The notes below the pieces were generated by a model, which saw only the letters and a program-made list of their open reading frames with translations, was not told the DNA's origin and did no database searches. Of a stretch of DNA of 64,000 bases, positions 16,570 to 38,332 are shown one piece after another; positions within the stretch are counted from its first letter, which is position 1, and each line of letters starts with the position of its first letter. A program made the position numbers and the translations under genes. Source of the DNA: the human T2T-CHM13v2.0 reference genome, Homo sapiens; assembly GCF_009914755.1 (NCBI RefSeq), contig NC_060928.1. The stretch is one strand, 5' to 3'.

Positions 16570-18434
16570 AGTTTTCAAGGGGAATATTTCTAGTTTTCTG
16601 CCCGTTTAATATGTTGGTATCTTCATTTAATGCCTATTTTCTTGAGATCTTTTATAATGAAGAGATGTTGAATTTTGTCAACACCTTTTTCTGTGTCTAT
16701 TGAGATGATCATATGGTTTTTATTTTAATCTGTTCATGTGGTGAATCACATTTATTGATTTTGCTATGTTGAACCAAGATTTCATCTCAGGAATAAAGCC
16801 TACTTGATCATGTTGGACTAACCTTTGATATACTGTTTGATTTTGTTGTGTCTTCTTAAAGATTTTTGCATCTATGTTCATCAGATATGTTGGACTTTAT
16901 TACCCACGGTGAGCATTAGACAGTACATCAGGGCAGAAAACTAATAAATAAATTCTGGACTTAAATTCAACACTTGACCAATTGTTCCTAAGAGAAATCT
17001 ACAGGACAGTCTACCCATCAACACATCAACAATAGAATGTATATTCTTCTCCTCTGCACACGACACATACTCCAAGATCAACCACATGGTCAACCATAAA
17101 ACAAGTCTGAATAAATTTAAAAAATAGAAATCATACCAACCATACTCTTGGACCACAGTGGAACAATACCAAGAATCAATACCAAGAAGATATCTGAAAA
17201 TCACACAACTACATGGAAATGAAACAACGTGTCCCTGAATGACTTTTGGGTAAACAATAAACTTAAGGCAGAAATAAAAATCTTCTTTCAAATAAATGAA
17301 ACAGAGGCACAACATACCAATGTCCCTGGGATGCACCATAAACAGTGTTAAGTGGAAAGTTTGCAGTGCTAAACACCTACCTCAAAAAATTAGAAATATC
17401 TCAAATTAACAAGCTAACTTTACATCTAGAAAAACAAGAAAAAAGTAACCCCAAAGCTTGCAGATGAAAATAAATAACTAAAATTTGAGCAGAATTGAAC
17501 AAAAGTGAGAATAAAAAAATCTATACAAAGAACCAAGAAAACCAAAAGTTGTTTTTTTTTGCAAGGTTAAACAAGATCAGTGGACTGCTAGCTGGATTAA
17601 CAAAGAAAAAGAAAACAGAGAGACAACCAAAATAAACACAATCGTAAATGACAAAGGTGACACTGGAACTGATTCCATAGAAATGCAAAAGGTCTCGTAG
17701 ACTACTATGACCACCTCCATGCACATCAACTAGAAAATCTAGGGGAAATGTATGCATTCCTGGAAACAAACAATCTCCCAAGATTGAATCAGGAAGCAGG
17801 AGTAACTATAAAGAGACTAATATTGAGTTCTGAAATGGAATCTGTAATAAAAAATATACCAACCAGAGAGAGTCCTTGAGCAGAAAAATTCACAGCTGAA
17901 TTCTACCAGATAAACAAAGAGCTAGTACCAATACTACTGAAACTATTCCAAAAAATTAGGGAGGAAGGCTTCTTTCCTTAATCATTCTACCAAACCAGCA
18001 TCATCCTGATACCAAAACCTGGCAAAGACACAAGAAAATAAATTAAAAATAATAATTATTTATACTATAAATGAATTTATACACTGTTACAATTTGTTGC
18101 AAAACATACATTTTGCTCATTTTTGTTTTATTCAATTAAACATTTATCTTAATGTCTTCATTTATTTTTAAAATGCAATTTCTAAGTTTTTGATGTGGAA
18201 AATATAGCAATGTAAACAGAAACATTTGTAATAGTGTGCTTTTAAGATCAAAAGAATCATATTCATTTTCTTCTTTCAAGGAAACATCATCTATAAAGCC
18301 ATCCAATACCTTTTTGAATCTGGTTTCAGTATCAAAAATTCATAAGAATTAAATTAGAGATTGTATGTAACTTTCATATGCCATACTAAAAACATCACTG
18401 TATGAAAGCTGCTCTTACTGTAGTTCGATTACTT

Positions 18435-18767
18435 GGGGATTAAAGCCTGTTATCACTCGCCTGCTACAGCATGGGCTTCTAAAACCTATAAACTCTCCTT
18501 ACAATTCTCCCATTTTGTCTGTTCAAAAACCGGACAAGTCTTACAGGTTAGTTCAGGATCTGCGCCTTATCAACCAAATTGTTTTGCCTGTCCACCCTGT
18601 GGTGCCCAACCCATACACTCTTTTGTCCTCAATACCTTCCTCCACAACTCACTATTCTGTTCTTGATCTTAAAGATGCTTTTTTCACTATTCCCCTACAC
18701 CCCTCGTCCCAGCCTCTCTTTGCTTTTACCTGGACTGACCCTGACACCATCAGTCCCAGCAGCTTAA
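18435..18767 (+). pseudogene. pol: HERV-H pol (RT N-terminal) fragment; inverted duplicate of 19878-20210
   Basis: Peptide [21 protein letters not shown]...[27 protein letters not shown] is a gammaretroviral RT motif A region. Confidence 0.95.
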
Positions 18768-18824
18768 TGTCACGTGCGTCCATGAGAAGAGACCACTAAA
18801 CAGGATTTGTGTGAGCAACAAGGC
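18768..18824 (-). mobile_element. HERV-H LTR terminal (R/U5) 57-bp fragment
   Basis: Reverse complement matches 19821-19877 and ends ...gtgaca. Confidence 0.95.
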
Positions 18825-18825
18825 A

Positions 18826-18970
18826 GATATCCAGTGGGGTCCCGTACAGATGGGACATGGTTTAGGAAGAATCCTGGGCTGCGGGCATTCCTTGGCCCAG
18901 TGGCCAGATTTCCACACTTGAAGCAAGATCCTAGGGGAGGAGATCCTAGAGGAATGCCTGACCACTGTGG
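18826..18970 (-). pseudogene. gag: Displaced HERV-H gag nucleocapsid (zinc knuckle) fragment
   Basis: [28 protein letters not shown]; same-orientation homologue of 20854-20999. Confidence 0.92.
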
Positions 18971-19441
18971 CTTTTTACCTAAATCAATCTGGCCTGGTAT
19001 ATGACAACATAAAAAAACTCAAGGATAGAGCCCAAAAATTCGCCAACCAAGCAAATAATTATGCTGAACCCCCTTGGGCACTCCCTAATTGGATGTCCTG
19101 GGTCCTCCCAATTCTTAGTCCTTTAATACCTATTTTTCTTCTCTTATTCGGACTTTCCATTTAGTTTCTCAATTCATGCAAAAACGCATCCAGGCCATCA
19201 CCAAGCATTCTATACAATAAACACTCCTTCTAACAAGCCCACAATATCACCCCTTACACCCAAATCTTTCTTCAATTTTCTCTCTCCCACTCTAGGTTCC
19301 TACCCCACCCCTAATCCTGCTTGAAGCAGCCCTGAGAAACATCACCCATTATCTCTCCATACCACCCCCCAAAATTTTCGCCCCCTCAACACTTCACCAC
19401 TATTTTGTTTTGTTTTTCTTATTAATATAAGAAGACAGGAA
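18971..19441 (+). pseudogene. env: HERV-H env TM C-terminal remnant, 3' untranslated region and polypurine tract
   Basis: FYLNQSGLVYDNIKKLKDRAQKFANQANNYAEPPWALPNWMSWVLPILSPLIPIFLLLFG; purine run 'aagaagacaggaa' abuts the LTR. Confidence 0.92.
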
Positions 19442-19877
19442 TGTCAGGCGTCTGAGCCCAAGCTAAGCCATCATATCCCCTGTGACCTGCATGTATACAT
19501 CCAGATGGCCTGAAACAACTGAATATCCATGAAATAAGTGAAAATAGCCTTAACTGATGACATTCCACCATTGTGATTTGTTTCTGCCCCACCCTAACTG
19601 ATCAATGTACTTTGTAAAAATCTCGCCCACCCTTAGGAAGGTTCTTCGTAATTCTCCCCACCCTTGAGAATATACTTCGTGAGATCCACCCCCTGCCTGC
19701 AAAACATTTCTCCTAACTCCACTGCCTATCCCAAAACCTATAAGAACTAATGATAATCCCACCACCCTTTACTGACTCTCTTTTGGGACTCAGCCTGCCT
19801 GCACCCAGGTGAAATAAACAGCCTTGTTGCTCACACAAAGCCTGTTTGGTGGTCTTTTCACATGGACGTGCATGACA
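19442..19877 (+). mobile_element. HERV-H 3' LTR (LTR7 family, LTR7B/C-like)
   Basis: tgtcaggcgtctgagcccaagctaagcc...catgaca; TG..CA termini; tataa ~19739; aataaa 19813-19818; preceded by PPT. Confidence 0.96.
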
Positions 19878-20620
19878 TTAAGCTGCTGGGACTGATGGGT
19901 GTCAGGGTCAGTCCAGGTAAAAGAAACAGAGGCTGGGACGAGGGGTGTAGGGAAATAGTGAAAAAAGCGTCTTTAAGATCAAGAACAGAATAGTGAGTCG
20001 TAGAGGAAGGTATTGAGGACAAAAGAGTGTACGGGTTGGGCACCACAGGGTGGACAGGCAAAACAATTTGGTTGATAAGGCGCAGATCCTGAACTAACCT
20101 GTAAGACTTGTCCCGTTTTTGAACAGGTAAAATGGGAGAATTGTAAGGAGAGTTTATAGGTTTTAGAAGCCCATGGCGTAGCAGGCAAGTGATAACAGGC
20201 TTTAATCCCCTTAAAGCCTGTTATGGGATGGGATACTGGCATTGGGTGGGGTGATTAGGTTTTAACGAGATAGTAATGGGCATGTGATCGGTTGCCAGGG
20301 AGGGTGTGGAGGTGTCCCATACTTGTGGGTTAAGGTGGGGGGATATGAGAGGAAGATGTGAAGGAGGCTCTGGGTTGGGAAGAAGGGTGGCAATGAGATG
20401 TGGCTGTGGTCCAGGAATAATCAGGGAAGCAGATAATTTGGTTAAAATGTCTCGGCCTAATAAGGGAACTGGGCAGGTGGGGATAACTGAAAAAGAGTAC
20501 ATAAAAGAATGTTGTCCAAGTTGGCACCAGAGTGGGGGAGTTTTAAGGGGTTTTGAAGCTTGGCTGTCAATACTCAGAACAGTTATGGGGCCAAGGGAAA
20601 ACAGGCCCTTCAAAAGAAGG
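19878..20620 (-). pseudogene. pol: HERV-H pro and 5' pol (RT), frameshifted, truncated at the LTR junction
   Basis: ...PTCPVPLLGRDILTKL (protease), ...[23 protein letters not shown] (RT). Confidence 0.93.
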
Positions 20621-20699
20621 TAATGTGGAGTGGGTAGCCCCCGTTATCGATTAAACAAGGGATGGACTTACCCTCCACTGTAAGAGTTACTTGAAGCTC

Positions 20700-21992
20700 G
20701 GCATCCTTGATGGTCCAGGGGGCTTCTGAGGTGATCGGGCAGCATCAGTCTTCAACTGCTAAGCTGAGGAGATCTGGGAAGGAGTCAGTCAGAGAGCCTT
20801 GGGCCAGAGTTACAGGGGCTCTGGGAGTGGCTGCCAGGAGAGTTGGACAGTCCGATTTCCAGTGGGTTCCCTCACAGTTGGGACACAGCTTAGGAGGAAT
20901 CCCAGGTTGTGGGCATTCCTTGGCCCAGTGGCCAGATTTCCAGCACTTGAAACAAAATCCTGGGGGAGGCGGTCCTGGAGGAACACCTGGCCACTGCGGT
21001 TTAGACGTTTTGAAGTTCTTGTGTACTGGAAATGTGGCTGGGATTTCTCTCACAGTGGAGGCAAGTAATTGCAATTCAGAAATATGTTGCTACTTGGCTG
21101 CCTCTATTCTATTATTGTACACCTTGAAGGCGAGGTTAGTTAGGTCCTGTTGTGGGGTTTGAGGGCCAGAATCTAATTTTTGGAGCTTTTTCTAAAGTCG
21201 GGAGCGGATTGGGTAATAAAATGCATATTGAGAATAAGACAGCCTTCTTCTGGGGTCTAGGACAGTAAAGCGTCTAAGGATTGTTGCCAAATGGGCCATG
21301 AACTGGGCTGGGTTTTTATATTTGATGAAAAAGAGCCTAAATGCTAACTGATTTGGGAGAGGTTGGATGAAGAAAAACGAGAATTAACCCTGACTATTCT
21401 CCAGCCACCTCTTTAAGAGGAAATTGTTGGGCAGGTGGGGGAGGGCTAGTCGCAGAACGAAACTGTAAGCCAGACCAGGTGTGAGGAGGGGAGGTGATAG
21501 AAAGATTTTAGGGTGGGGGAGCAGAGGCTGAGGAAGAATTGGGACCTGGCTAGGCCTGGCGAGGAGCAGCCTGGGGGAGAAGGGGAGAGGTCAGATGAGT
21601 CCGTAGAAAAGAAGGATTCAAAGGTCTCAGAGCTTGGAGTGGAGACTGAAGGAACAGACAGGAGAGAAAGAATAAAGATTTGGGATCAGTGGCATTGGGA
21701 GCAGAGAGTAGGGAGGGACCAATGTGTAAAAGAAGGCCTGGATGTCAGGCACCTCAGATCATTTGCCCATTTTTCAATAAAAATTATCTAGATCATGTAG
21801 GATAGACAAATCGAAAGTGCCATTCTCTGGCCACTTGGAACTACTGTCGAGTTTGTACTGGGGCCAAACAGTATTGCAGAAGAAAATAAGACGCTTAGAT
21901 TTTGGGTCAGGAGAGAGTTGGAGAGGTTTTAATTTCTTGAGAACACAGGCTAAGGGAGAAGAAGGAGGAATGGAGGGTGGAAGGTTGCCCAT
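20700..21992 (-). pseudogene. gag: HERV-H gag, disrupted (MA start MGNLPPSIPPSSPLAC...; NC with CX2CX4HX4C and a second knuckle)
   Basis: ORFs 21774-22205 and 20745-21074 ([27 protein letters not shown]); not continuous. Confidence 0.92.
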
Positions 21993-22079
21993 AGTGAAGG
22001 AGGCAAGTTTAAAGAGAAGGTTAGAGACACGGAGAAGTGGGGTGGGGAGTAGCCCTGGACTGCAATGTGGGTGAGCAGC

Positions 22080-22225
22080 CAAAGCAGGCGTCCGCGCAAT
22101 TGACTTACCACCATGGGAATGTGAGTGAATGACCAAGGCAGGCGTCCCCGTGGTGATCAGACACCAATGGAATGTGAGTGAATAATCAGGCAGGCATCCC
22201 CACAATGATTAAACACCAAGGGAAG
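22080..22225 (-). repeat. ~53-bp imperfect tandem repeats (about 3 copies) in the HERV-H leader
   Basis: Repeated 'gcaggcgtcc...cacca...ggaatgtgagtgaat'. Confidence 0.8.
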
Positions 22226-22380
22226 GCTGTCTTTCTGAGTCCGTGACCTGTGCCGGAGTTTTGGGTCCACTGATAAAATGTGTCTCCTTTGTCTCTACTA
22301 GAGAGGAAAAAGAACAGGAATTGGAAGGACAGGGAGATTGAAGGGTAGCGAGAGAGCCTGGAGAAGAGAGTGAAAAGACC

Positions 22381-22389
22381 GCTTACCCG
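22381..22389 (-). promoter_or_regulatory. HERV-H major splice donor (CGG|GTAAGC)
   Basis: Reverse complement of 'gcttacccg', ~140 nt downstream of the 5' LTR, the known position of the HERV-H donor. Confidence 0.75.
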
Positions 22390-22509
22390 ATTTGAAATTG
22401 GTGAGAAGTTCCTTGGGCTGGTTGGTCTGAGGACCCAAAGTCATAGGTGGATCTCTTCACGGAGTGAGGATGAGGACAGGAGACTGGTCTCCCGAAGGAG
22501 TCCCTCTGA

Positions 22510-22527
22510 CCCAGGTCTTCTGCACCA
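22510..22527 (-). promoter_or_regulatory. Primer-binding site TGGTGCAGAAGACCTGGG (tRNA-Phe-like)
   Basis: Starts after a 2-nt spacer from the LTR end; closer to Phe PBS TGGTGCCGAAACCCGGGA than His PBS TGGTGCCGTGACTCGGAT. Confidence 0.8.
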
Positions 22528-22529
22528 AA

Positions 22530-22961
22530 TGTCTCACGCGTCCTTGTGAAGAAAGTCCACCAACAGGATTTGTGTGAACAGCAAGGCTGTTTATTTCACC
22601 TGGGTGCAGGTGGGCTGAGTCCAAAAAAGGAGTCAGCGAAGGGTGGTGGGATTATCATTAGTTCTTACAGGTTTTGGGACAGGCGGTGGAGTTAGGAGCA
22701 ATGTTTTGCCGGCAGGTGGTGGATCTCACAATATACATTCTCAAGGGTGGGGAGAATTACAAAGAACCTTCTTAAGGGAGGGAAATTACAAAGTACATTG
22801 ATCAGTTAGGGTGGGGCAGAAACAAATCACAATGGTGGAATGTCATCAGTTAAGGCTATTTTCACTTATTTTGTGGATGTTTAGTTGTTTCAGGCCATCT
22901 GGATGTATATATGCAGGTCACAGGGGATATGATGGCTTAGCTTGGGCTCAGAGGCCTGACA
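22530..22961 (-). mobile_element. HERV-H 5' LTR (LTR7 family, LTR7B/C-like)
   Basis: Reverse complement tgtcaggcctctgagcccaagctaagcc...gtgagaca, followed by PBS, leader and gag. Confidence 0.96.
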
Positions 22962-25876
22962 ATTAGCAGCCAGATGCTAATGGCACTATCTGAGCAAAGT
23001 AAATCTGATAAACTGGCAAAGTTTAATTGTTGGCTCAATACAGAACTTATATTCTAAAAAACTGCATTGTCTTTCCGGATGAATTTATGACAAGTTGTGG
23101 AATTCCATTTAAACAGAATGTTGAAAAATACTAGCTCCTAAGAAAAAACTAGTTATAATACCTGCTGGAGGGACAAAGGACAATTAGTGATGTCATGTCT
23201 CTGACAGTATTTCATCCTCCATGTTTCTCACCTTCAGGAAAGAATAATCCTCATGATAAAAGGTATATTTTTGTATTTCTTTTCCTCATTCATTTGTCTC
23301 TATTGTCACGTATTTGAAGTCCCTGTGTAGCATGGAAAAAGTCTTACTTATATTTCATTGCATGGATTCAATAAATATTTGCATATTTTTGACAGTTTTA
23401 TTTCAAGTGACTGTACTATTCAAAATGTATTTGTCAAAAAAGACTCAAATATAAACATATTTACATTAATATTATTAATTGAATTTACCCATACACATTA
23501 AAACTAAAAGGTTAAATATGAAATGATCTTCACTCTATTTATTTAGAATTAATTGCTTCCCTATTATTTAAAATATAATGCATGCATGTTTATATTTTTT
23601 AGCCAATGTTTCTATAGAGTTCCCTTAATACTAAAATTATTTTAAAATTTAAACATCAGAACATTTTTCCATTTCTGCAAGACTACTCATTGCTTTTACT
23701 GGACATATTTACATTTCAATTATATTTTTATAATTTATCTGTTCAACAGCTTATGGTTTATAACATTTTAATACAATTCTAACTTGGCAGAATCAAAATT
23801 AAACTAGAGAGTTTTTGAAAACTCATAACCTGTCAACTTTAGAGAACAATTCTAGTGAATAGTCAAATTATATACCAAAACCAAAAATATCCAAGGCTAG
23901 AAGAAGATTTAATTGGACATATTGTTAAATATCTAGAAAGTTTACTCGAATAGCAGTTGAGCTCTAATACAAAAACTGTATTTTATTATGTCATCTATTT
24001 TGCTTTTATATGTATCTGGATTACACATGTTCTTGACCTGTATTCCTGTCACAAATAAACATTTGGTATCGCTAGTTAGTACAGAAAAACATGAGAAATG
24101 GTTGGAAGTTAAATTTATCTTTGTATTTTGAAATACACATGGAAACAAGAATAACTTCTTCAGTATTACTTATTATGCAGATTATAATTTCACAGTTGTT
24201 TTCTCACATCTATTTCATCGAGTCTCCTAATAAAAAATAATAATTCTAACACAACTCTAACAGTGACTGAGCTGCCAAAAATATCACTGCCAATGAATTA
24301 AATCATGTTGTTTACAATAATTTGCTGACTCTTAATCTGAAGAAAGTACTTTGTGGAACTAATGGTGATGCTAATTGTGCATTTCTATGCTCTGAAATGA
24401 CAATGATATCATAACAAGTTAATCTCATTTCAATGTGCATTTCGGATGCAAACCACAAAATATATTACAAAAGACATTTTGATTAAAGTTTGCTAAAGGT
24501 AAAGTTTTTAAGAAAACAAATGTTTCTCATTTATTTATGCTTGTGAATCTCCTATATACATGGTCTTTTATTTGTGGGGGAGAAGGGAGATTATGATAAG
24601 TGATTGATACAAAAAAGGAATAAATATTTATTTTGATAGCTACACGTAAACGTATACTGAGGCCTATGTGCAAATTTTAATTAGAACATTAACAGTAAAA
24701 TGTGATGACTAATTTTGCAAGGCAAATACTATCCTGCAATTTGTAGTATGTATTGGCAATAATATAATTTTTTCTCTTGATTATTTAGTAGCTAGATTTT
24801 AATTTAGTTGATTGTATAACTCACTGACTCTTGTTATCAATTATTTTGGTTACTTTTTAGCGTACATACCACATGAAAAGCAAGAAAAGGTAAAGAGCCA
24901 AAAATTTAACTTATTAAAAATTTTCATTTTTATTATTTTATTATCCTTTCAATTTTTAGCAATTCTATCATTATGCTTAGTGACAAAGCAGAGTAACATG
25001 AAATTTTTTTTAAAATCTGCAAACTAAAAATTAGCATGTTTACAAATACCAAAATAAATCAAAATCAGAATGAAGAAACAGCTTTTTATAAAGAAATGTA
25101 GGAATCAGATTTTAAAAAGAAATCAAAATAGCAACTAAAATTGTTTTCTCAAACTTCTGGTCATACTTCCAACAGGACTGTTAGATATCTCCTAGGTAGG
25201 CTGTCACGGGTTTCTCTGTTGATGATTTCCAATTACTTTTCAGAATTGATAAATCGTTGTGTTGAACTTTAAATTGTGTCCAAAACTTAAAATTTCTTAA
25301 GAATAAAGTTAAACTCAGATTATTTAACTTATAAAGATTCTTCACATGTATGGTTTCATTCAATCTATATGACTTTATTAGATTTGTCCAACAATCCTAA
25401 TTGTAAAAATTAATTACATAACTTGATTTCTCAAATATATGTTCTTAGGCTAGCTTTTTTTTCTGAATTTTCTAAGCCCTACATGTAATAATTACATGAG
25501 CTAATAAATTACAAATATTTTAAAATTTAGAACACACATGTTTCCCTATAGTGTGTTAAGATTTTATTAAATACATGCTCTCAATTTAAAGCTACATCAC
25601 TTAATGAACGTGTTTAGTTTATTCAAAGTGAAACTATGCAATTCCTGTTGACCATAACATTACACAGGTTTTAATAGAAATTTAAACAATAAATCCTTGG
25701 ATCCCATACTATATAATCATACTTTATATAAATAACTACTTTTATTTCATTCTCTCCTATATGTATGGTTTCTATTTATTTTACTAGCCATTTGCAATGT
25801 TTAGGACCTATACATTCTCGCTGTGTTCTGAGCCTTAGGGTGGATTGTATTTCTCTCTCTCTCTGCTAAATATAAT

Positions 25877-32599: not shown

Positions 32600-35500
32600 G
32601 GGAGTGGTATTAGCAAGACAACAGAACAGGAAGTCTTGAACCCTCCTTTACTCTGACTAACTCATGTTTTCAACAGTAATTCATGGACATTTTCTCTTTG
32701 TGAGAAATTCAGAAACTCATTAAGAAGTTACTGCACTCCTGCAGAAGATGAAATAAGTCACACTGAAGCTAGTAGGACAATGTGAAATACCTTTTCCCAG
32801 CTTCTCTCTGGGCATAAAAAGAGGTACACCATGTATCCTACATCCCAACATTTTCAGAGGCTAACAGAGGACTGAATTTTTCCATCCTATTTTGAAGAGA
32901 ATACAGAATATGGAACATGGTATACTCTAGCCACCTGGAACTGGTGAAAACAGAAGCAATGGTTCAGGCTGAGGGTCAACACCCCCACACCCGCTGGCTC
33001 AGCACAGAAATAGCAGTGGTAAAACCCTAACTCCCAGATTTTTCCTGAGAAGGAAAAGTGGTGGCGCACTAAAGGTCCAATGTCCCAACTTTTCAGAGAG
33101 CTACCCAAAAGATTAGCATCTGTCTACTCTGTCTCAGAGCTCTGATCAAACTGGGACACAGCATTTTCGCCACCTAAGGCCTCCCTGTGAGATCAGAGAT
33201 AGACATTTGGCCTGGTGGTCCCCATAGCCACTCCCTGGCTCAGCAACAAGCAAGTGGATGAAAAGCCTCAACTCCCAGGTTCATTTTGAAGCGAAGAAGG
33301 GAAAAGAGATGCATTGAGTGTTCAATATCCTAACTTTTCCAAGGGTTACCCAGAAGACTGGTTTCAGTCTAGCCTGTCACCATAGTCAGTGACACTAGCT
33401 CAGGATAGCACAGACAGAGGAAAAATCTAAGATCCCAACTTCTATCTAGAAAATGAATGAAGTACATTGTGCACCTTACAACCCAACTTGAAGGAGGGGT
33501 TGCCTGATAAATTGGCTCTGTGAGTACTGACAGGTTTCATCATACTCTAGACACCACAGACTACTAAAAATAAAAAAAAAAGTGGATTGGAACAGCATGA
33601 ATATTTGAGGGGCCTCCAGAATCTCTGGCCCAGGCTGATTTGTGAGGGTCTTGTTCAGTACGGGGCTAGTCTGCAAAGACTAGGAGAAGCGGCTGTTGTC
33701 TCTAATATGCAGATATGAACACAGAGAATCAGGAAAAATAGAGAAGGAGAAAAATACCTTTCAAACAAAGCAACAAGATAAATCTCCATAAACTGACTAA
33801 TAAAATGGAGGTGTGTTATTTACCTGACAGAAAATTCAAATAACTGTCATAAAGATGCTCACCAAGGTCAAAAGAACAATGCGTGAACAAAATGAGAATT
33901 TCAACAAAAAGAAGTTTTGTAAAGTACCAGACAGAATTAATGGAGCTGAAGAATACAATAACTGAGATAAAAAATTTATTAGAGGCATTAAACAGTTGAC
34001 TAGATCCAACAGAGGAAAGGATCAAGAAACTCAAAGACAAGTCATTGAAAATTAATCAGCCAGAGGAACAAAAAGAAAAAAGGAATGTAAAAGAGTAAAG
34101 AAAACCTAAGGAACTAATGGAACGCCATCAAGCTTTTAAATATAAACATTACGGAAGTCCCAGAATAAAAACAGATAAACAAAAGACTAAAAGAGTTATT
34201 TAAATAAATAATAATAACTGAGAATTTCCCAAATGTGGGAAAGAAAATAGACATCCTGATTCAAGAAGCCCAAAGTTCCTCAAAAATATTTCTTATAATG
34301 GAAAGATATAAATTTTCTCAGAGAAATAAAAGCTGAGGGAATACATCTCCACTAGATCACACTGTAAAAATGCTAAAGAGAGTTGTTAAAGGTAAAAAAA
34401 GGAAGCTAAGCAGCACTACAATAGCTTAAGAAAGACTAAAATAACATATAGACATATATAGAACCCTGTATCACTGTCAAAGTGGTTAGTAAATCATTCG
34501 AATTCTTATATAAAATTTAAAAGACAAATGTATTAAAAATCTATAATAACAATGTTAATGAGTACACAATACAAATAGACATAAATTGTGACATCAATAA
34601 CATAATATGTGTATGTGGCTGGGAAGAAGCAAAAGCACACTTTTTTAGTATGTTATTGAACTTATCAGCTTAAAATAGATGGTTATATATTACATAAGGC
34701 CCATGTTAAACATGAATAAAACTACAAATGTCACACACACACACACAAACACAAAGAGAAAGGTATCAAAGCATAACAATATAAAATATCTATGACACAC
34801 AAAGGAAAACAAGAGAAAAAAATGACAAAAGCCGCTAAGACAAAGAGAAAAAAACACAATGGCAATAGTGAATCATTCCCTATTAATATTTACTTCAAAT
34901 GTAAACACATTAAAATTCCTAATCAAAGGACGTGGAGTGGTTAAACAAAAGCAAGATTCAGCTGTTTGCTGTATTAAGATATTCACTTTAGATTTAAAGA
35001 CACATATAACCTGTAAGTGAAGGGATGGAAAAAGTTATTCCATGCAAAAGTGAGCAAGAGTAGGTATATTTATATTAGACAAAATAAACTTTTAGCAACA
35101 ACCTGTTACAAAAGATAAAGAAGGACATTAAAATAATCAATAAATAATCAATGGGAACATATAAAAATTATATGCATCCAACATCAGAAAATTTAAGTAT
35201 ATAAAGCAAATATTGACAGAATTGAAGGGAGAGAAAGCAAAACAACAGTAGGTTATTCAACTCTCCGCTTTAACAAATGGACAGGTCAGTCATACAGAAA
35301 ATCAATAAACAGTGGATTTGAGCAATGCTAAGACTATATGAACCAGAGATATTTAAAGAACATGCAACACAACAGCAGCAGAATATATATTCTTCTCAAG
35401 TAGGCTCAGAACATTCTCTGGGATAGACCAGATGTTAGATCAAAACACAAGTTTTAAAAATTTTATGAAGATTGAAGTCATGCCGAGTACCTTATTCAAC

Positions 35501-38332
35501 CACAGTATAATGAAACCAGAAACAAGAGAAGAAAAACTTCTGAAGGATACACAAAAATGTGAAAATTAAACAAAATAGTTTTGAAAAATTACTAAGTCAA
35601 AGAAGGAATCACAAAGAAAATAAGAAAATATATTTAAACAAATGAAAATAAAAATATAACATAGCAAAACTTATTGGATACATCAAAAGTAGTACTACAA
35701 GAGAAGCTTGTAATAACAGATGCCTATACTAAAAGAAAAAGATCTCAAATAAACAACCTAACATTACACCTCAAGGAACTAGAAAAAGAAGAACAAACCA
35801 AGACCAATGTTTGAGGAAGAAAGGAAATAACAAAGATTAGAAGAGAAGTAAATGAAGCAGAGAATAGAAAAACAATAGAAAACAAAACCAAGAGTTGGTA
35901 ATTTGAGATCAACGAAATTGTCAAACCTTTAGCTAGACTAAGAAAAAATACTAAAATAAATATAATCATAAATGAAAGATGAGACATTACAACTGTTATG
36001 AGAAAAATAAAGGTTCATAAAAGCTTACTGTAAACAATTCTATACCAACAAACTGTATAACCTAGAAAAAGTGAAGTGGCAGTATACAAAATCAACATAC
36101 AATAATTAGTTGCATTTGTATACACAAACAACATACTATCAAAAAAAGAATTTAACAAAATACTTCCATTTACAATACTATCAAAAAGAATAAAGTACTT
36201 AGGAATATCTTAAGTAAGGAAGAAAAAGACTTGTACATGAAAACTACCAAATATTGAAGAAAGAAATTTAAAAAGACACAGAAAAATATATAACTGGTAT
36301 TCATTTATTAGAAGACTTAGCATTGTTGAAATGTTCAAACCATGCAAAGTAATCTACAGATTCAATGTTATTCCTATCAAAATCCAAATTCCCAGTGGCA
36401 TTTTTTCCATAAGTATAAAAAGACAATTCTAAAATTTATATGTAACACAAAAGAGTCCCCAAAGCCAATACAATTATAATAAACAAAAACAAGAATGGAA
36501 GTATTATGGTTCCTAATTTTAAATTATTTTACAAAGCTATAGTAATCAAAATAGTTGAGTATTAGCATAGATACGGACATATGAACCAATGGAACAGAAT
36601 AGAGAGCCCAGAAGTAAATCCATACACACACGGTTCATTGATCTTCAGTAAGGTTCTACAAACACACAATCAGGAAATGGTAGTCTTTTCAACAAATGGT
36701 GTTGAGAACACTAGATATTTACATGCACAATAATGAATTAGGACTCGTATACTATACCATATAAAAAATCAACTCAAAATAGATGAAAAGCTTAAACGTT
36801 AAAACCTCAAACTGTCCAACTTATAGAAGAAAATATGGAAAAACATATTTATGATATTTTTCTTAGCATTGAATTCATGAATATGAAACCAAAGCATAGG
36901 CTACAAAAATAAAAATAGACAAGTGGGAATAAATAGGACTAAACAGCTTCTGCACAGCAAAGGAAACAATCAACAAACCAAAAAGGCAAGCTACAGAATG
37001 GGAGAAAATATTTGCAAACATTATATTAGATAGAGGTTAATTGACAAAGTATTTAAGAAACCCCTATGACTCAATAGCAAGAAAATCCCAAACAAGCAAA
37101 ACACACACACACACACACACAAAACTCCTAAAACCCAAAGTTAAAAATGGGCCAAAAATTTGAATAAACATTTCTCCAAAGATGGACAAATGGTCAATAA
37201 GAATATGAAAATACAGGCCACATAGTTAATCATATCCAAATGCAAACCAAAACTACAATGAGACATCACCTCACAGTGGTTAGTATGAGTATTATAAAAA
37301 CAAAACAAAACAAAAACAAAGAATACAAAACACAACAAAAACAAGAAGAAACAACATAGTAAAGATGTAAAAAAATTGAAACTCTTGTATGTGGGTGATA
37401 GGAATGTAAAAGTGTTCAGCCACTTAAAAAACAGTATGGAGGTTCTTCAAAAAATTAAAAATAGAATGACCATATGATCCAGCAAATACACTTCTCAATA
37501 TTTATCCTAAAGTATTGAAATAAGTATCTCAAAGAAATATTAGCAACCCAAAATTCATTACAGCAAAGCTCACAATTGCCAAAACGGAGAACAGACCATG
37601 TGTCCATTAACTGATGAACAGACAAGAGAAATGGTGTATTCATACAATGGCATATTATTCCACCTTTTAAAAAAGGAAATTTTGTCATTTACTATGACAT
37701 TGATGAACCTTGAAGATTATTCTAAGCCAAACAAGCCAGTCACTCAGAAGAGCAAATACTGCATGATTCCACTTAGATGAAGTATCTATAATAGTCAAAG
37801 TCATAGAATCAGAGATTAAAATTGTTATCAGGAGCTGTGGGAGAAGAGCATGGCAATGGAAAATTACTAATCAAAGGCATAAAGTTTTAATTAGGGAAGA
37901 TTAGTAAGTTCTAGAGATCTGCTGTGCAATACTTTTCTAAGGTAAACAGTATTTTATTGTACACTTAAAAATTTGCTAATAGGGCTGGGCGCAGGGGTTC
38001 ACTCCTGTAATCCTAACACTTTGGGAGGCTGAAGTGGGCGGATCACCTGAGGTCACGAGTTTGAGACCAGCCTGGTGAAACCCTGTCTCTACTAAAAATA
38101 CAAAAATTAGCTGGGTGTGGTGGCACACACCTGTAGTCCCAGCTAGTTAAGAGGCTGAGGCAGGAGAATCACTTGAACCTGGGAGGCAAAGGTTGTAATG
38201 AGCTGAGATGGTGCCACTGGCTCCAGCCTGGGCAACAGAGCGAGACTCCATCTCAAAAAAAAAAAAGAAAAAAAATGTGCTAATAGGTTAGATTTCATGT
38301 TAAGTCTTCTTAGCACAACAAATAAAATAAGG
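32600..38332 (+). mobile_element. Near full-length old L1 (L1MA9/L1MB-like 3' end): 5'UTR, ORF1, ORF2 remnants with internal deletions
   Basis: ORF1-like 'acctgacagaaaattcaaataactgtcataaagatgctc'; ORF2 start 'atggcaatagtgaatcattccctattaatattt'; 3' end 'aagttctagagatctgctgtgcaa...aaaatttgctaa'. Confidence 0.85.
37983..38271 (+). mobile_element. AluS (Sx/Sz-like) in L1 3'UTR, 9-bp internal deletion
   Basis: TSD aaaatttgctaatag (37968-37982) / aaaatgtgctaatag (38272-38286). Confidence 0.96.

What the first reader, a model, noticed from the sequence alone, without database searches (positions are those of the whole stretch)
18435..22961. HERV-H provirus with inward-facing LTRs and a precise LTR-end/pol fusion: candidate germline-fixed autointegration product
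Seen: on the minus strand the element runs 5'LTR (22961-22530), PBS, gag, pro, pol. It stops at pol 'cagcagcttaa' (19878), which abuts the exact terminal CA of a complete opposite-strand 3' LTR (19442-19877) carrying its own PPT and env tail. There is no PBS, filler or host DNA at the join (catgaca|ttaagctg). Established: retroviral integrase joins the processed CA-3' end to its target, and attack on the virus's own DNA gives inversion products that are normally dead ends. Inference: one LTR end attacked its own pol while the other end joined the chromosome. Both LTRs share 'gaaacaact' and 'aaataagtg', which differ from the LTR7B consensus as I recall it and so favour a single provirus. The alternative is a second HERV-H inserted antisense into pol followed by a deletion.
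Basis: partly seen in the sequence, partly recalled or inferred. Interest (0 to 1): 0.85.

Follow-up and report, generated by a model that had tools for sequence, protein, structure and literature searches.

The report
Rearranged HERV-H insertion, aberrant integration fossil
This is a scrambled ancient HERV-H retrovirus copy in which only one end looks inserted by the viral integrase, while the rest looks patched together by DNA repair, so it is an unusual fossil of a known kind of failed integration rather than a self-integration product.

Summary
An antisense LTR-PBS-gag-pro-pol runs from 22961 to 19879. It stops in reverse transcriptase and abuts the U5 end of a sense env-tail/PPT/LTR (18972-19877).

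1. The join reads CA-T-T. The first T is not pol: 69 of 69 genomic HERV-H pol copies carrying the adjoining 15-mer read C there. TT is what follows U5 in 17 of 20 U5-PBS junctions. So at least one terminal nucleotide that integrase removes was kept.
2. The same U5|pol junction occurs twice, as a 391-bp inverted duplicate (18435-18824 vs 19821-20210, 94.6%). It is found nowhere else in the genome.
3. A 146-bp antisense gag-NC scrap (18826-18973) sits between the pieces. It is not more similar to this element's own NC than to unrelated copies. The left end (18435) is not an LTR end; it lies at the loop of a 14-bp hairpin in pol.

The best reading is aberrant one-ended integration. Integrase joined only the U3 end (22961). 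The other side was built by end joining and fold-back or template-switch synthesis, as described for ASLV and HIV vectors.

Integrase autointegration is not supported. A single-virus origin is plausible but mixed: the LTRs share two near-unique variants, yet are not sisters in a star-like tree.

The parts
18428..18434 (.). Left host flank next to the insert. ATTAC (18428-18432) matches 4 of 5 bases of the right-flank ATTAG, then 2 nt (TT) before the viral DNA. This is a possible remnant of a 5-bp target duplication, and it is weak.
   Evidence: sequence; the flank is unique in the genome; the family makes 5-bp duplications (at least 10 solo LTRs with perfect 5-bp repeats, read by eye). I estimate the chance of a 4/5 match within a few offsets at roughly 5-10%.
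18435..18766 (+). Segment a: sense copy of the N-terminal part of pol reverse transcriptase (arm 1, pol part). It starts at the loop of the native pol hairpin and ends at pol ...CTTA.
   Evidence: RVT_1, E 6.8e-10, profile positions 1-98; inverted repeat with 19879-20210; alignment with 5 other pol copies; 13 substitutions in 326 columns versus arm 2.
18767..18767 (.). Extra A, the complement of one T of the terminal U5-TT. It lies between pol and the antisense U5 and mirrors base 19878.
18768..18824 (-). Segment b: the last 57 nt of an LTR (U5 end), antisense. It is the inner part of arm 1.
   Evidence: It differs from the U5 of LTR e at 6-7 of 57 positions.
18826..18973 (-). Segment c: antisense gag nucleocapsid (zinc-knuckle) scrap. 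It comes from a HERV-H source that shows no closer relation to this element's own NC than to unrelated copies.
   Evidence: 83% identity to 20854-21002; 24 differences in 141 sites versus this element's NC; the mean among other copies is 89% identity; zf-CCHC, weak, below the cut-off; neither of its junctions is seen in the other scored loci; 2-nt overlap (TT, 18972-18973) with segment d.
18972..19441 (+). Segment d: env TM C-terminal part (starting just after the CX6CC motif), 3' untranslated part, polypurine tract (about 19429-19439) and AA.
   Evidence: TLV_coat 483-543 of 560; in 6 of 6 other copies env continues upstream, so 18972 is a true breakpoint..
19442..19877 (+). LTR e: a complete LTR (TG...CA) in 3'-LTR context.
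   Evidence: best other copies are 93% identical.
19878..19879 (+). TT after the terminal CA. Base 19878 is not pol. Base 19879 is shared by U5-TT and pol (1-nt overlap).
   Evidence: LTR hits run to 19879 and pol hits start at 19879; 5 of 5 pol copies read CTTA then C; 69 versus 0. TT in 17 of 20 U5-PBS junctions.
19879..22508 (-). Segment f: the antisense body, made of leader, gag (MA weak, NC zinc knuckles), protease, and RT up to ...CTTA. Its first 332 nt form the pol part of arm 2.
   Evidence: RVT_1, RVP, zf-CCHC, zf-CCHC_5, Gag_MA weak..
20192..20224 (-). Native pol hairpin with a 14-bp perfect stem and a 5-nt loop (20206-20210). The outer boundary of both arms (18435 and 20210) falls at the loop/stem edge.
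   Evidence: -12.9 kcal/mol, z -3.8, 0 of 200 shuffles as good; the palindrome is present in other pol copies (L021, L024).
22509..22528 (-). Primer-binding site (22509-22526) and the TT spacer (22527-22528) next to the 5' LTR.
22529..22961 (-). LTR g: the 5' LTR of the antisense body. Its outer end is exactly TG/CA against unique host DNA, with no retained AA.
   Evidence: best other copies are 92% identical..
22962..22966 (.). Right host flank ATTAG, the expected position of a 5-bp target duplication.

Best explanation
This is a fossil of an aberrant, one-ended retroviral integration of HERV-H DNA.

Shown:
- The insert has one normal LTR-host junction (U3 end of LTR g, 22961).
- The other boundary (18435) is not an LTR end.
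- Inside the insert, the U5 terminus of a 3' LTR is fused to antisense pol and keeps at least one of the two terminal nucleotides (CA-TT) that integrase cuts off.
- That junction exists in two inverted copies.
- A scrap of gag with no closer relation to this element's own gag than to unrelated copies is spliced in.
- The other internal junctions show only a few nucleotides of overlap (2 nt at c|d, 1 nt at U5|pol, at most 1-3 nt by eye at b|c).

Inferred mechanism:
1. Integrase inserted only the U3 end into the chromosome.
2. The other side was finished by host-type repair. An unprocessed U5-CATT 3' end and a pol end were joined, or one primed on the other, with 1 nt of homology.
3. The growing 3' end then copied further templates in turn: env tail/LTR, then a piece of another HERV-H DNA.
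4. It then folded back and copied its own U5|pol junction for 391 nt.
5. The single-stranded tail folded at the native pol hairpin, was trimmed at the loop, and was end-joined to the chromosome.

The order of steps may differ. Fold-back priming from the U5 end could have come first, followed by repair between the resulting inverted pol repeats.

The event is old. The arms (about 5% diverged) and the LTRs (about 10% diverged) are as diverged as unrelated family members are from each other.
For: - **Terminal-nucleotide retention.** Pol copies read ...CTTA then C in 5 of 5 aligned copies. The exact 16-mer ending in C has 69 genome hits. The one ending in A has only the two arms plus one site that is not HERV-H. 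U5 is followed by TT then the PBS in 17 of 20 junctions. Integrase-independent insertion of HIV DNA at breaks keeps the terminal dinucleotide (PMC3605128, passages read).
- **The junction is duplicated and unique.** 18435-18824 matches 20210-19821 at 94.6% over 391 columns, with 19 substitutions and 2 gap columns. No other scored locus spans it (39 other hits, none across the join). The best non-self hit of arm 2's pol part is arm 1 (96%, 529 bits, against 524 bits for the next hit).
- **One clean end, one non-LTR end, unique flanks**.
- **Short overlaps at junctions.** 2 nt at c|d and 1 nt at U5|pol.
- **The hairpin boundary**.
- **Segment c shows no closer relation to this element's own NC than to unrelated copies.** 83% identity, against a mean of 89% among other copies.
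- **A published model matches point by point.** In aberrant ASLV/HIV integrations one end is normal. The other is truncated or joined to extra viral DNA in either orientation. The viral 3' end primes host-polymerase synthesis on either strand of viral DNA, several segments can be appended, and short homologies occur at the joins (PMC5041404, abstract, results and discussion passages read).
- **An in-situ inversion of a normal provirus is unlikely.** It would put the host target base (C, from the flank ATTAG read on the other strand) after CA. TT is observed instead.
Against: - The terminal-nucleotide argument rests on one base (19878).
- A possible 4-of-5 target duplication (ATTAC...ATTAG) sits 2 nt from the left boundary. 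If real, it would suggest a more orderly, two-ended cut of the target than a one-ended event predicts.
- The arms differ less in pol (13/326, 4.0%) than the LTR pair does relative to family background. LTR e-g is 9.7%, against about 6.5% for family pairs. So the duplication may be later than the insertion, or the arms may have been homogenised.
- Whether host polymerases or reverse transcriptase made the switches cannot be told from sequence.
- No orthologue or empty site could be examined.
- Arm 2 has about twice the private changes of arm 1 (10 vs 5, binomial p = 0.30). This is not significant.
Confidence: 0.5

Rival explanations
1. Integrase-mediated half-site autointegration. The processed U5 CA-3'OH attacked the element's own pol, while the U3 end was inserted into the chromosome.
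For: - The join is at the LTR terminus to within 1-2 nt, and in inverted orientation, as an opposite-strand attack would give.
- LTR e and LTR g share two variants found in only one other LTR genome-wide.
- Autointegration producing inverted products is established (PMC7197481, passages read).
Against: - Base 19878 is an extra T after CA, and 0 of 69 pol copies carry the matching base.
- Known autointegrants are circles made by both ends.
- The model does not explain the second inverted copy of the junction, the gag-NC scrap or the non-LTR left end.
Confidence: 0.1
2. A cDNA rearranged by reverse transcriptase. Non-homologous template switches and snap-back self-copying happened during plus-strand synthesis, with two different co-packaged HERV-H RNAs as templates. 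The scrambled DNA was then inserted through its one good end.
For: - The junction lies exactly at a template end (U5-TT, which is the end of the minus-strand template).
- Overlaps are only 1-2 nt.
- A foreign gag-NC piece fits a second co-packaged genome.
- Aberrant strand transfers are a major source of defective HIV proviruses (PMC12657518, passages read).
- Proviruses with inversions occur: 2 of 78 in one HIV data set (PMC9278108, passages read).
Against: - A plus-strand strong-stop DNA normally carries the PBS copy, which is absent here.
- Copying a plus-sense template is not a normal step.
- The left end still needs host end joining.
- Sequence alone cannot separate this from synthesis by host polymerases.
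Confidence: 0.17
3. Two independent HERV-H insertions. A second provirus integrated antisense into pol of the first, and later deletions and rearrangements removed most of both.
For: - The LTRs are only 89.8% identical. In the 3' 260 bp they differ by 14%, more than average family pairs at 7.7%.
- In the sampled tree LTR g groups with a chr3 LTR (SH-aLRT 82) and not with LTR e.
- Ordinary nested LTR insertions into antisense HERV-H gag exist; locus L048 is one.
Against: - Pol is not continued on the other side of the inserted part.
- The extra T after CA argues against an integrase join.
- Both LTRs carry two variants otherwise seen once in the genome.
- A further event is still needed to duplicate the junction in inverted form.
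Confidence: 0.13
4. A later chromosomal rearrangement (inversion with inverted duplication, by replication template switching) of a normally integrated provirus. Alternatively, an assembly artefact.
For: - Inverted duplications at inversion breakpoints are typical of replication-based rearrangement (recalled, not from a call).
- The arms are less diverged than the LTR pair.
Against: - A breakpoint within 1-2 nt of the LTR end, reading TT rather than the host target base, is unlikely by chance.
- The arms differ at 21 of 391 columns. A chimeric-assembly duplicate would be identical.
Confidence: 0.07

Closest known systems
Aberrant (one-ended) retroviral integrations in ASLV and HIV-1 vector experiments (Varadarajan et al. 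2016, PMC5041404, and the earlier work cited there)
   Same: One normal LTR-host junction. The other end is truncated or joined to additional viral DNA in either orientation. Several segments are appended. Short homologies occur at the joins. The process is attributed to host polymerases priming from the unintegrated viral 3' end.
   Different: Those are somatic events in cultured cells, provoked by a mutated end, integrase inhibitors or weak integrase mutants. Here the product is fixed in the human germline and tens of millions of years old. It also contains an inverted second copy of its own internal junction.
Autointegration products (deletion and inversion circles) of retroviruses and LTR retrotransposons (as summarised in PMC7197481)
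   Same: An LTR end is joined to the element's own interior in inverted orientation.
   Different: Autointegrants are made by integrase from processed CA ends, usually with both ends, and are dead-end circles. Here a terminal T is retained, only the U5 end is involved, and the product sits in a chromosome.
Integrase-independent capture of retroviral DNA at double-strand breaks (Koyama et al. 2013, PMC3605128)
   Same: Terminal nucleotides that integrase would remove are retained. Joining is done by host end joining.
   Different: There both LTR ends are ligated into a chromosomal break. Here the retained end is joined to viral pol, and the U3 end looks integrase-processed.
Ordinary nested LTR insertion into another HERV-H (example: locus L048, chr12)
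   Same: An LTR CA end abuts antisense internal HERV-H sequence.
   Different: In L048 the interrupted gag continues on both sides of the LTR and no TT follows CA. Here pol is not continued on the other side and TT is present.

Membership tests
HERV-H / LTR7-type endogenous retrovirus | LTRs of the LTR7 group with TG...CA ends and thousands of genomic relatives | tested here: met
2604 and 2841 first-look candidates, with the best other copies 93% and 92% identical.
HERV-H / LTR7-type endogenous retrovirus | Gammaretrovirus-like gag-pro-pol-env domains | tested here: met
   RVT_1, RVP, zf-CCHC, zf-CCHC_5 and TLV_coat. Gag_MA scores below its cut-off.
HERV-H / LTR7-type endogenous retrovirus | tRNA-His primer-binding site (as I recall the family definition) | tested here: inconclusive
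   the PBS here begins TGGTGCAGAAGACC, like about 10 sampled relatives with TGGTGCC(G/A)AAGACCC. Other LTR7 copies have TGGTGCCGTGACTC. Which tRNA each matches is recalled, not tested.
Integrase-mediated autointegration product | LTR end joined at the processed CA, with the terminal dinucleotide lost | tested here: not met
   Base 19878 (and its mirror 18767) is an extra T. Zero of 69 pol copies have the matching base.
Integrase-mediated autointegration product | Both LTR ends inserted into the element's own DNA with a short staggered target duplication | tested here: not met
   The U3 end of LTR g abuts unique host DNA. There is no U3|internal junction anywhere in 18435-22961.
Integrase-mediated autointegration product | LTR and target come from the same viral DNA molecule | tested here: inconclusive
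   For: two near-unique shared LTR variants. Against: e and g are not sisters in a star-like tree, and the 3' part is 14% diverged.
Aberrant one-ended integration (integrase at one end, host repair at the other) | One normal LTR-host junction | tested here: met
   At 22961 the LTR ends exactly at TG/CA, with no retained AA, and the flank is unique.
Aberrant one-ended integration (integrase at one end, host repair at the other) | The other end is truncated and/or carries appended viral DNA in either orientation, sometimes in several segments | tested here: met
   Segments a, b and c lie to the left of the env tail, and the left boundary is inside pol.
Aberrant one-ended integration (integrase at one end, host repair at the other) | Short homology at the aberrant joins | tested here: met
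   1 nt at U5|pol, 2 nt at c|d, and at most 1-3 nt at b|c. The join to host cannot be judged without the empty site.
Aberrant one-ended integration (integrase at one end, host repair at the other) | No regular 5-bp target duplication; host deletion or duplication instead | tested here: inconclusive
   A 4-of-5 match (ATTAC/ATTAG) lies offset by 2 nt. The family norm is 5 bp. An outgroup empty site is needed.
Nested second provirus | The interrupted element continues on both sides of the insert | tested here: not met
   Upstream of the env tail lies antisense NC, antisense U5 and sense pol, not the antisense continuation of pol. Contrast L048.

The most novel reading that the evidence does not exclude
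The locus is a germline-fixed record of a retroviral DNA end attacking its own genome before or during integration. That would be either true integrase autointegration with an incompletely processed end, or a snap-back made by reverse transcriptase. It was then rescued into the chromosome through the single remaining good end. It would be the first natural, inherited example of a normally suicidal side reaction of retroviral replication, and its junctions would preserve the mechanism at single-base resolution.
Probability: 0.25. Interest if true: 0.6.

Novelty: new member of a known kind. Interest (0 to 1): 0.42.

Why it matters
Aberrant integrations, in which integrase inserts one end and host repair does the rest, are known from vector experiments. 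They are of concern because they rearrange DNA.

A clean, base-resolved example fixed in the human germline would show two things. Such events happened during natural endogenisation of HERV-H, and they can be recognised by simple signatures: a retained terminal TT, an inverted copy of the junction, and a non-LTR boundary. That makes a genome-wide search for more such fossils possible.

In practice, the locus is a rearranged, non-coding HERV-H remnant. Its 5' LTR overlaps an annotated enhancer. Nothing suggests a function for the rearrangement itself.

Tried and rejected
- **Junction as a subfamily feature or segmental duplicate.** Rejected. Searches across each junction found no other locus spanning them. 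In each only the 40 best candidates were scored, out of 2433, 1291 and 2020. The exact junction 16-mer occurs only in the two arms plus one unrelated chr8 site.
- **Arms as a recent duplication.** Rejected. The pol parts differ by 4.0%, the same as unrelated copies at 3.1-6.8%.
- **Segment c copied from this element's own NC.** Not supported: 83% identity, against a mean of 89% among other copies.
- **LTR tree.** It is star-like: 31 of 42 inner branches are unsupported, and 45 rows were sampled from the neighbours of LTR e, not from all copies. It neither proves nor excludes sisterhood. I first read the intermediate-frequency differences between e and g as subfamily markers. Many are CpG decay sites, so I dropped that argument.
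- **The chr2 LTR with the two shared variants as a sibling.** It is only 78-79% identical overall and shares just the 5' block.
- **Models that do not fit.** I worked through a fold-back centred on the pol hairpin, a giant palindrome with deletions, and a simple inversion between the inverted pol repeats. Each fails to place antisense U5 next to sense pol at the left, or needs a deletion ending exactly at the host boundary.
- **Earlier findings of this scan.** These were closed to the session.
- **Literature.** Searches for a described germline example found none among the papers listed. One search returned 4 papers. One search listed 15 of 52. One search listed 12 of 633. This is not proof of absence, because subscription journals are not searched.
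- **Primate orthologues and long reads.** No tool holds them, so they could not be examined.

Full report
**What is in the sequence**

HERV-H-derived DNA occupies exactly 18435-22961. The 300 bases on either side have no other match in the 3.1-Gb genome. Reading the + strand, the pieces are:

| Piece | Coordinates | Content |
|---|---|---|
| a | 18435-18766 | sense pol, N-terminal part of reverse transcriptase (RVT_1 profile 1-98) |
| extra base | 18767 | one extra A |
| b | 18768-18824 | last 57 nt of an LTR, antisense |
| c | 18826-18973 | antisense gag nucleocapsid scrap |
| d | 18972-19441 | sense env TM tail (TLV_coat 483-543), 3' untranslated part, polypurine tract |
| e | 19442-19877 | complete sense LTR |
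| TT | 19878-19879 | two bases after the terminal CA |
| f | 19879-22508 | antisense pol, protease, gag and leader |
| PBS and TT | 22509-22528 | primer-binding site and spacer |
| g | 22529-22961 | antisense LTR |

Self-comparison shows that 18435-18824 is an inverted copy of 19821-20210. There are 391 columns with 19 substitutions and 2 gap columns, 94.6% identity. This repeat contains the U5|pol junction itself, so the junction exists twice in mirror image.

Piece c is a direct repeat of the element's own NC region at only 83%.

None of the four internal junctions is seen in any other scored locus. each scored the best 40 candidates, out of 2433, 1291 and 2020. The exact 16-mer across the pol|extra-base join occurs only in the two arms, plus one chr8 site that is not HERV-H.

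The arms differ at 21 columns, so this is not an assembly chimera.

**The key base**

In 5 of 5 aligned pol copies the sequence reads ...CTTA followed by C. Genome-wide, the 16-mer ending in C has 69 hits, and the one ending in A has none in HERV-H outside this locus.

Other LTR copies match the junction query up to 19879, that is through CA+TT. Pol copies match from 19879.

In 5' LTRs the U5 end is followed by TT and then the PBS in 17 of 20 junctions found by pattern (2 have TTT, 1 has CT). The unintegrated linear DNA therefore ends ...CATT. This follows from the established scheme of reverse transcription.

The junction is thus U5-CA-T-[T/A overlap]-pol. At least one nucleotide that integrase removes before strand transfer is still there. 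Retention of these nucleotides is the recognised mark of integrase-independent joining (PMC3605128, passages read).

An in-situ inversion of a normally integrated provirus would put the host target base (C) after CA, not T.

**The two ends**

The outer end of LTR g is exactly TG/CA, with no retained AA, against unique DNA. That is what integrase gives.

The left end lies inside pol, at the loop edge of a native 14-bp-stem, 5-nt-loop hairpin (-12.9 kcal/mol, z -3.8). The hairpin is also present in other pol copies.

The family makes 5-bp target duplications. At least 10 sampled solo LTRs have perfect ones (read by eye, with the L072 flank taken). Here the right flank reads ATTAG. The left flank has ATTAC two bases from the boundary. 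This 4-of-5 match is not significant.

**Relatedness of the pieces**

LTR e and LTR g are 89.8% identical.
- In the first 176 bp they differ at 6 of 174 sites.
- In the rest they differ at 36 of 257 sites.
- The family background for these two parts is 4.8% and 7.7%.

They share A at 19515 and T at 19535. Both variants are absent in 42 of 42 sampled LTRs. Genome-wide they are found together only in e, g and a chr2 solo LTR, which is otherwise only 78-79% identical.

A maximum-likelihood tree of 45 sampled LTRs is star-like, with 31 of 42 inner branches unsupported. LTR g pairs with a chr3 LTR (L004, SH-aLRT 82), and e is unresolved. So a single-virus origin is plausible but not shown. Homogenisation of the 5' block by gene conversion between the inverted LTRs is an alternative.

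The pol parts of the arms differ at 13 of 326 sites. That is the same as unrelated copies (3.1-6.8%), and there are one or two shared derived sites. Arm 1 is nevertheless the best genomic match of arm 2. The duplication is therefore old.

Piece c is no closer to this element's NC (24/141) than to unrelated copies. I read this as a second HERV-H template being involved; an ancient copy of this element's own NC is not excluded by the count alone.

**Mechanism**

The overlaps are 1 nt at U5|pol, 2 nt at c|d and at most 1-3 nt at b|c. Three further features go with them:
- a template or DNA end lies exactly at the LTR terminus;
- several pieces are appended in both orientations;
- there is a fold-back copy of the junction.

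Together these match the published description of aberrant integrations. In those, one end is inserted by integrase, and the unintegrated viral 3' end primes host-polymerase synthesis on either strand of viral DNA. Several segments can be appended and short homologies occur at the joins (PMC5041404).

I infer that integrase inserted the U3 end, and that the rest was built by end joining and template switching. This ended with a fold-back copy of the U5|pol junction and trimming at the hairpin before ligation to the chromosome. The hairpin-trimming step rests on recalled properties of end-joining nucleases.

An equally possible order is different. Fold-back priming from the unprocessed U5 end on the element's own pol came first. 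Repair between the resulting inverted pol repeats then followed.

Whether reverse transcriptase or host polymerases made the switches cannot be decided from sequence.

The idea of a single rearranged viral DNA with one integrase-made chromosomal junction survives as plausible. Integrase catalysis at the internal junction (autointegration) fails the one feature that could be tested. It also leaves three of the structural features unexplained.

**Limits**

No primate orthologue, empty site or long read could be examined. The genome searches score only the best 40 candidates. The LTR sample is biased toward neighbours of LTR e. The LTR7 subfamily could not be assigned. The supplements of the cited papers were not read.

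**Verdict**

This is a real, unusual, old rearranged HERV-H locus. It is best read as a germline fossil of aberrant one-ended integration: a new member of a known kind, of moderate interest.

Noticed in passing
window 21995-23194 (hub annotation) vs LTR g 22529-22961: The RefSeq 'enhancer' feature covers the 5' LTR, the PBS/leader and about 230 bp of unique flank. The only annotated function in the region therefore sits on the integrase-joined LTR of this element.
   Followed up: no
L048 (G000 chr12:110384796-110387896), about 1540-2075: An LTR7-like LTR lies in the opposite orientation inside gag NC of another HERV-H. The interrupted gag continues on both sides and no TT follows CA. This is an ordinary nested insertion and a useful contrast to the window's junction. 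Its target duplication was not resolved.
   Followed up: partly
L004 (G000 chr3:27601008-27604097): This HERV-H has an LTR that shares two uncommon U5/R variants with LTR g and has a similar PBS. Its leader is fused directly to the middle of reverse transcriptase, a large internal deletion. It may be a relative of the window's element.
   Followed up: partly
loci L003-L078, U5-PBS junctions: At least three PBS types follow LTR7-group LTRs. They begin TGGTGCCGTGACTC, TGGTGC(C/T)GAAACCCGGGA and TGGTGCC(G/A)AAGACCC. The window's element has the third type. Which tRNAs they match was not tested.
   Followed up: no
L079 (G000 chr2:89212050-89212700): This is a solo LTR with a large internal deletion relative to e and g, sitting next to what looks like an immunoglobulin V-gene end. 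It is the only other LTR in the genome with both 5'-block variants shared by e and g.
   Followed up: partly
L034-L042 (chr16) and L076/L078 (chr9:136.34 Mb): The chr16 loci hold many near-identical copies of an env-tail plus two LTRs about 180 bp apart, which is a segmental duplication family. The chr9 locus holds two LTRs in tandem about 130 bp apart.
   Followed up: no
window 17019-17551 vs 35365-35897: Two stretches of the window are 67-69% identical in direct orientation. They are probably copies of an old interspersed repeat.
   Followed up: no
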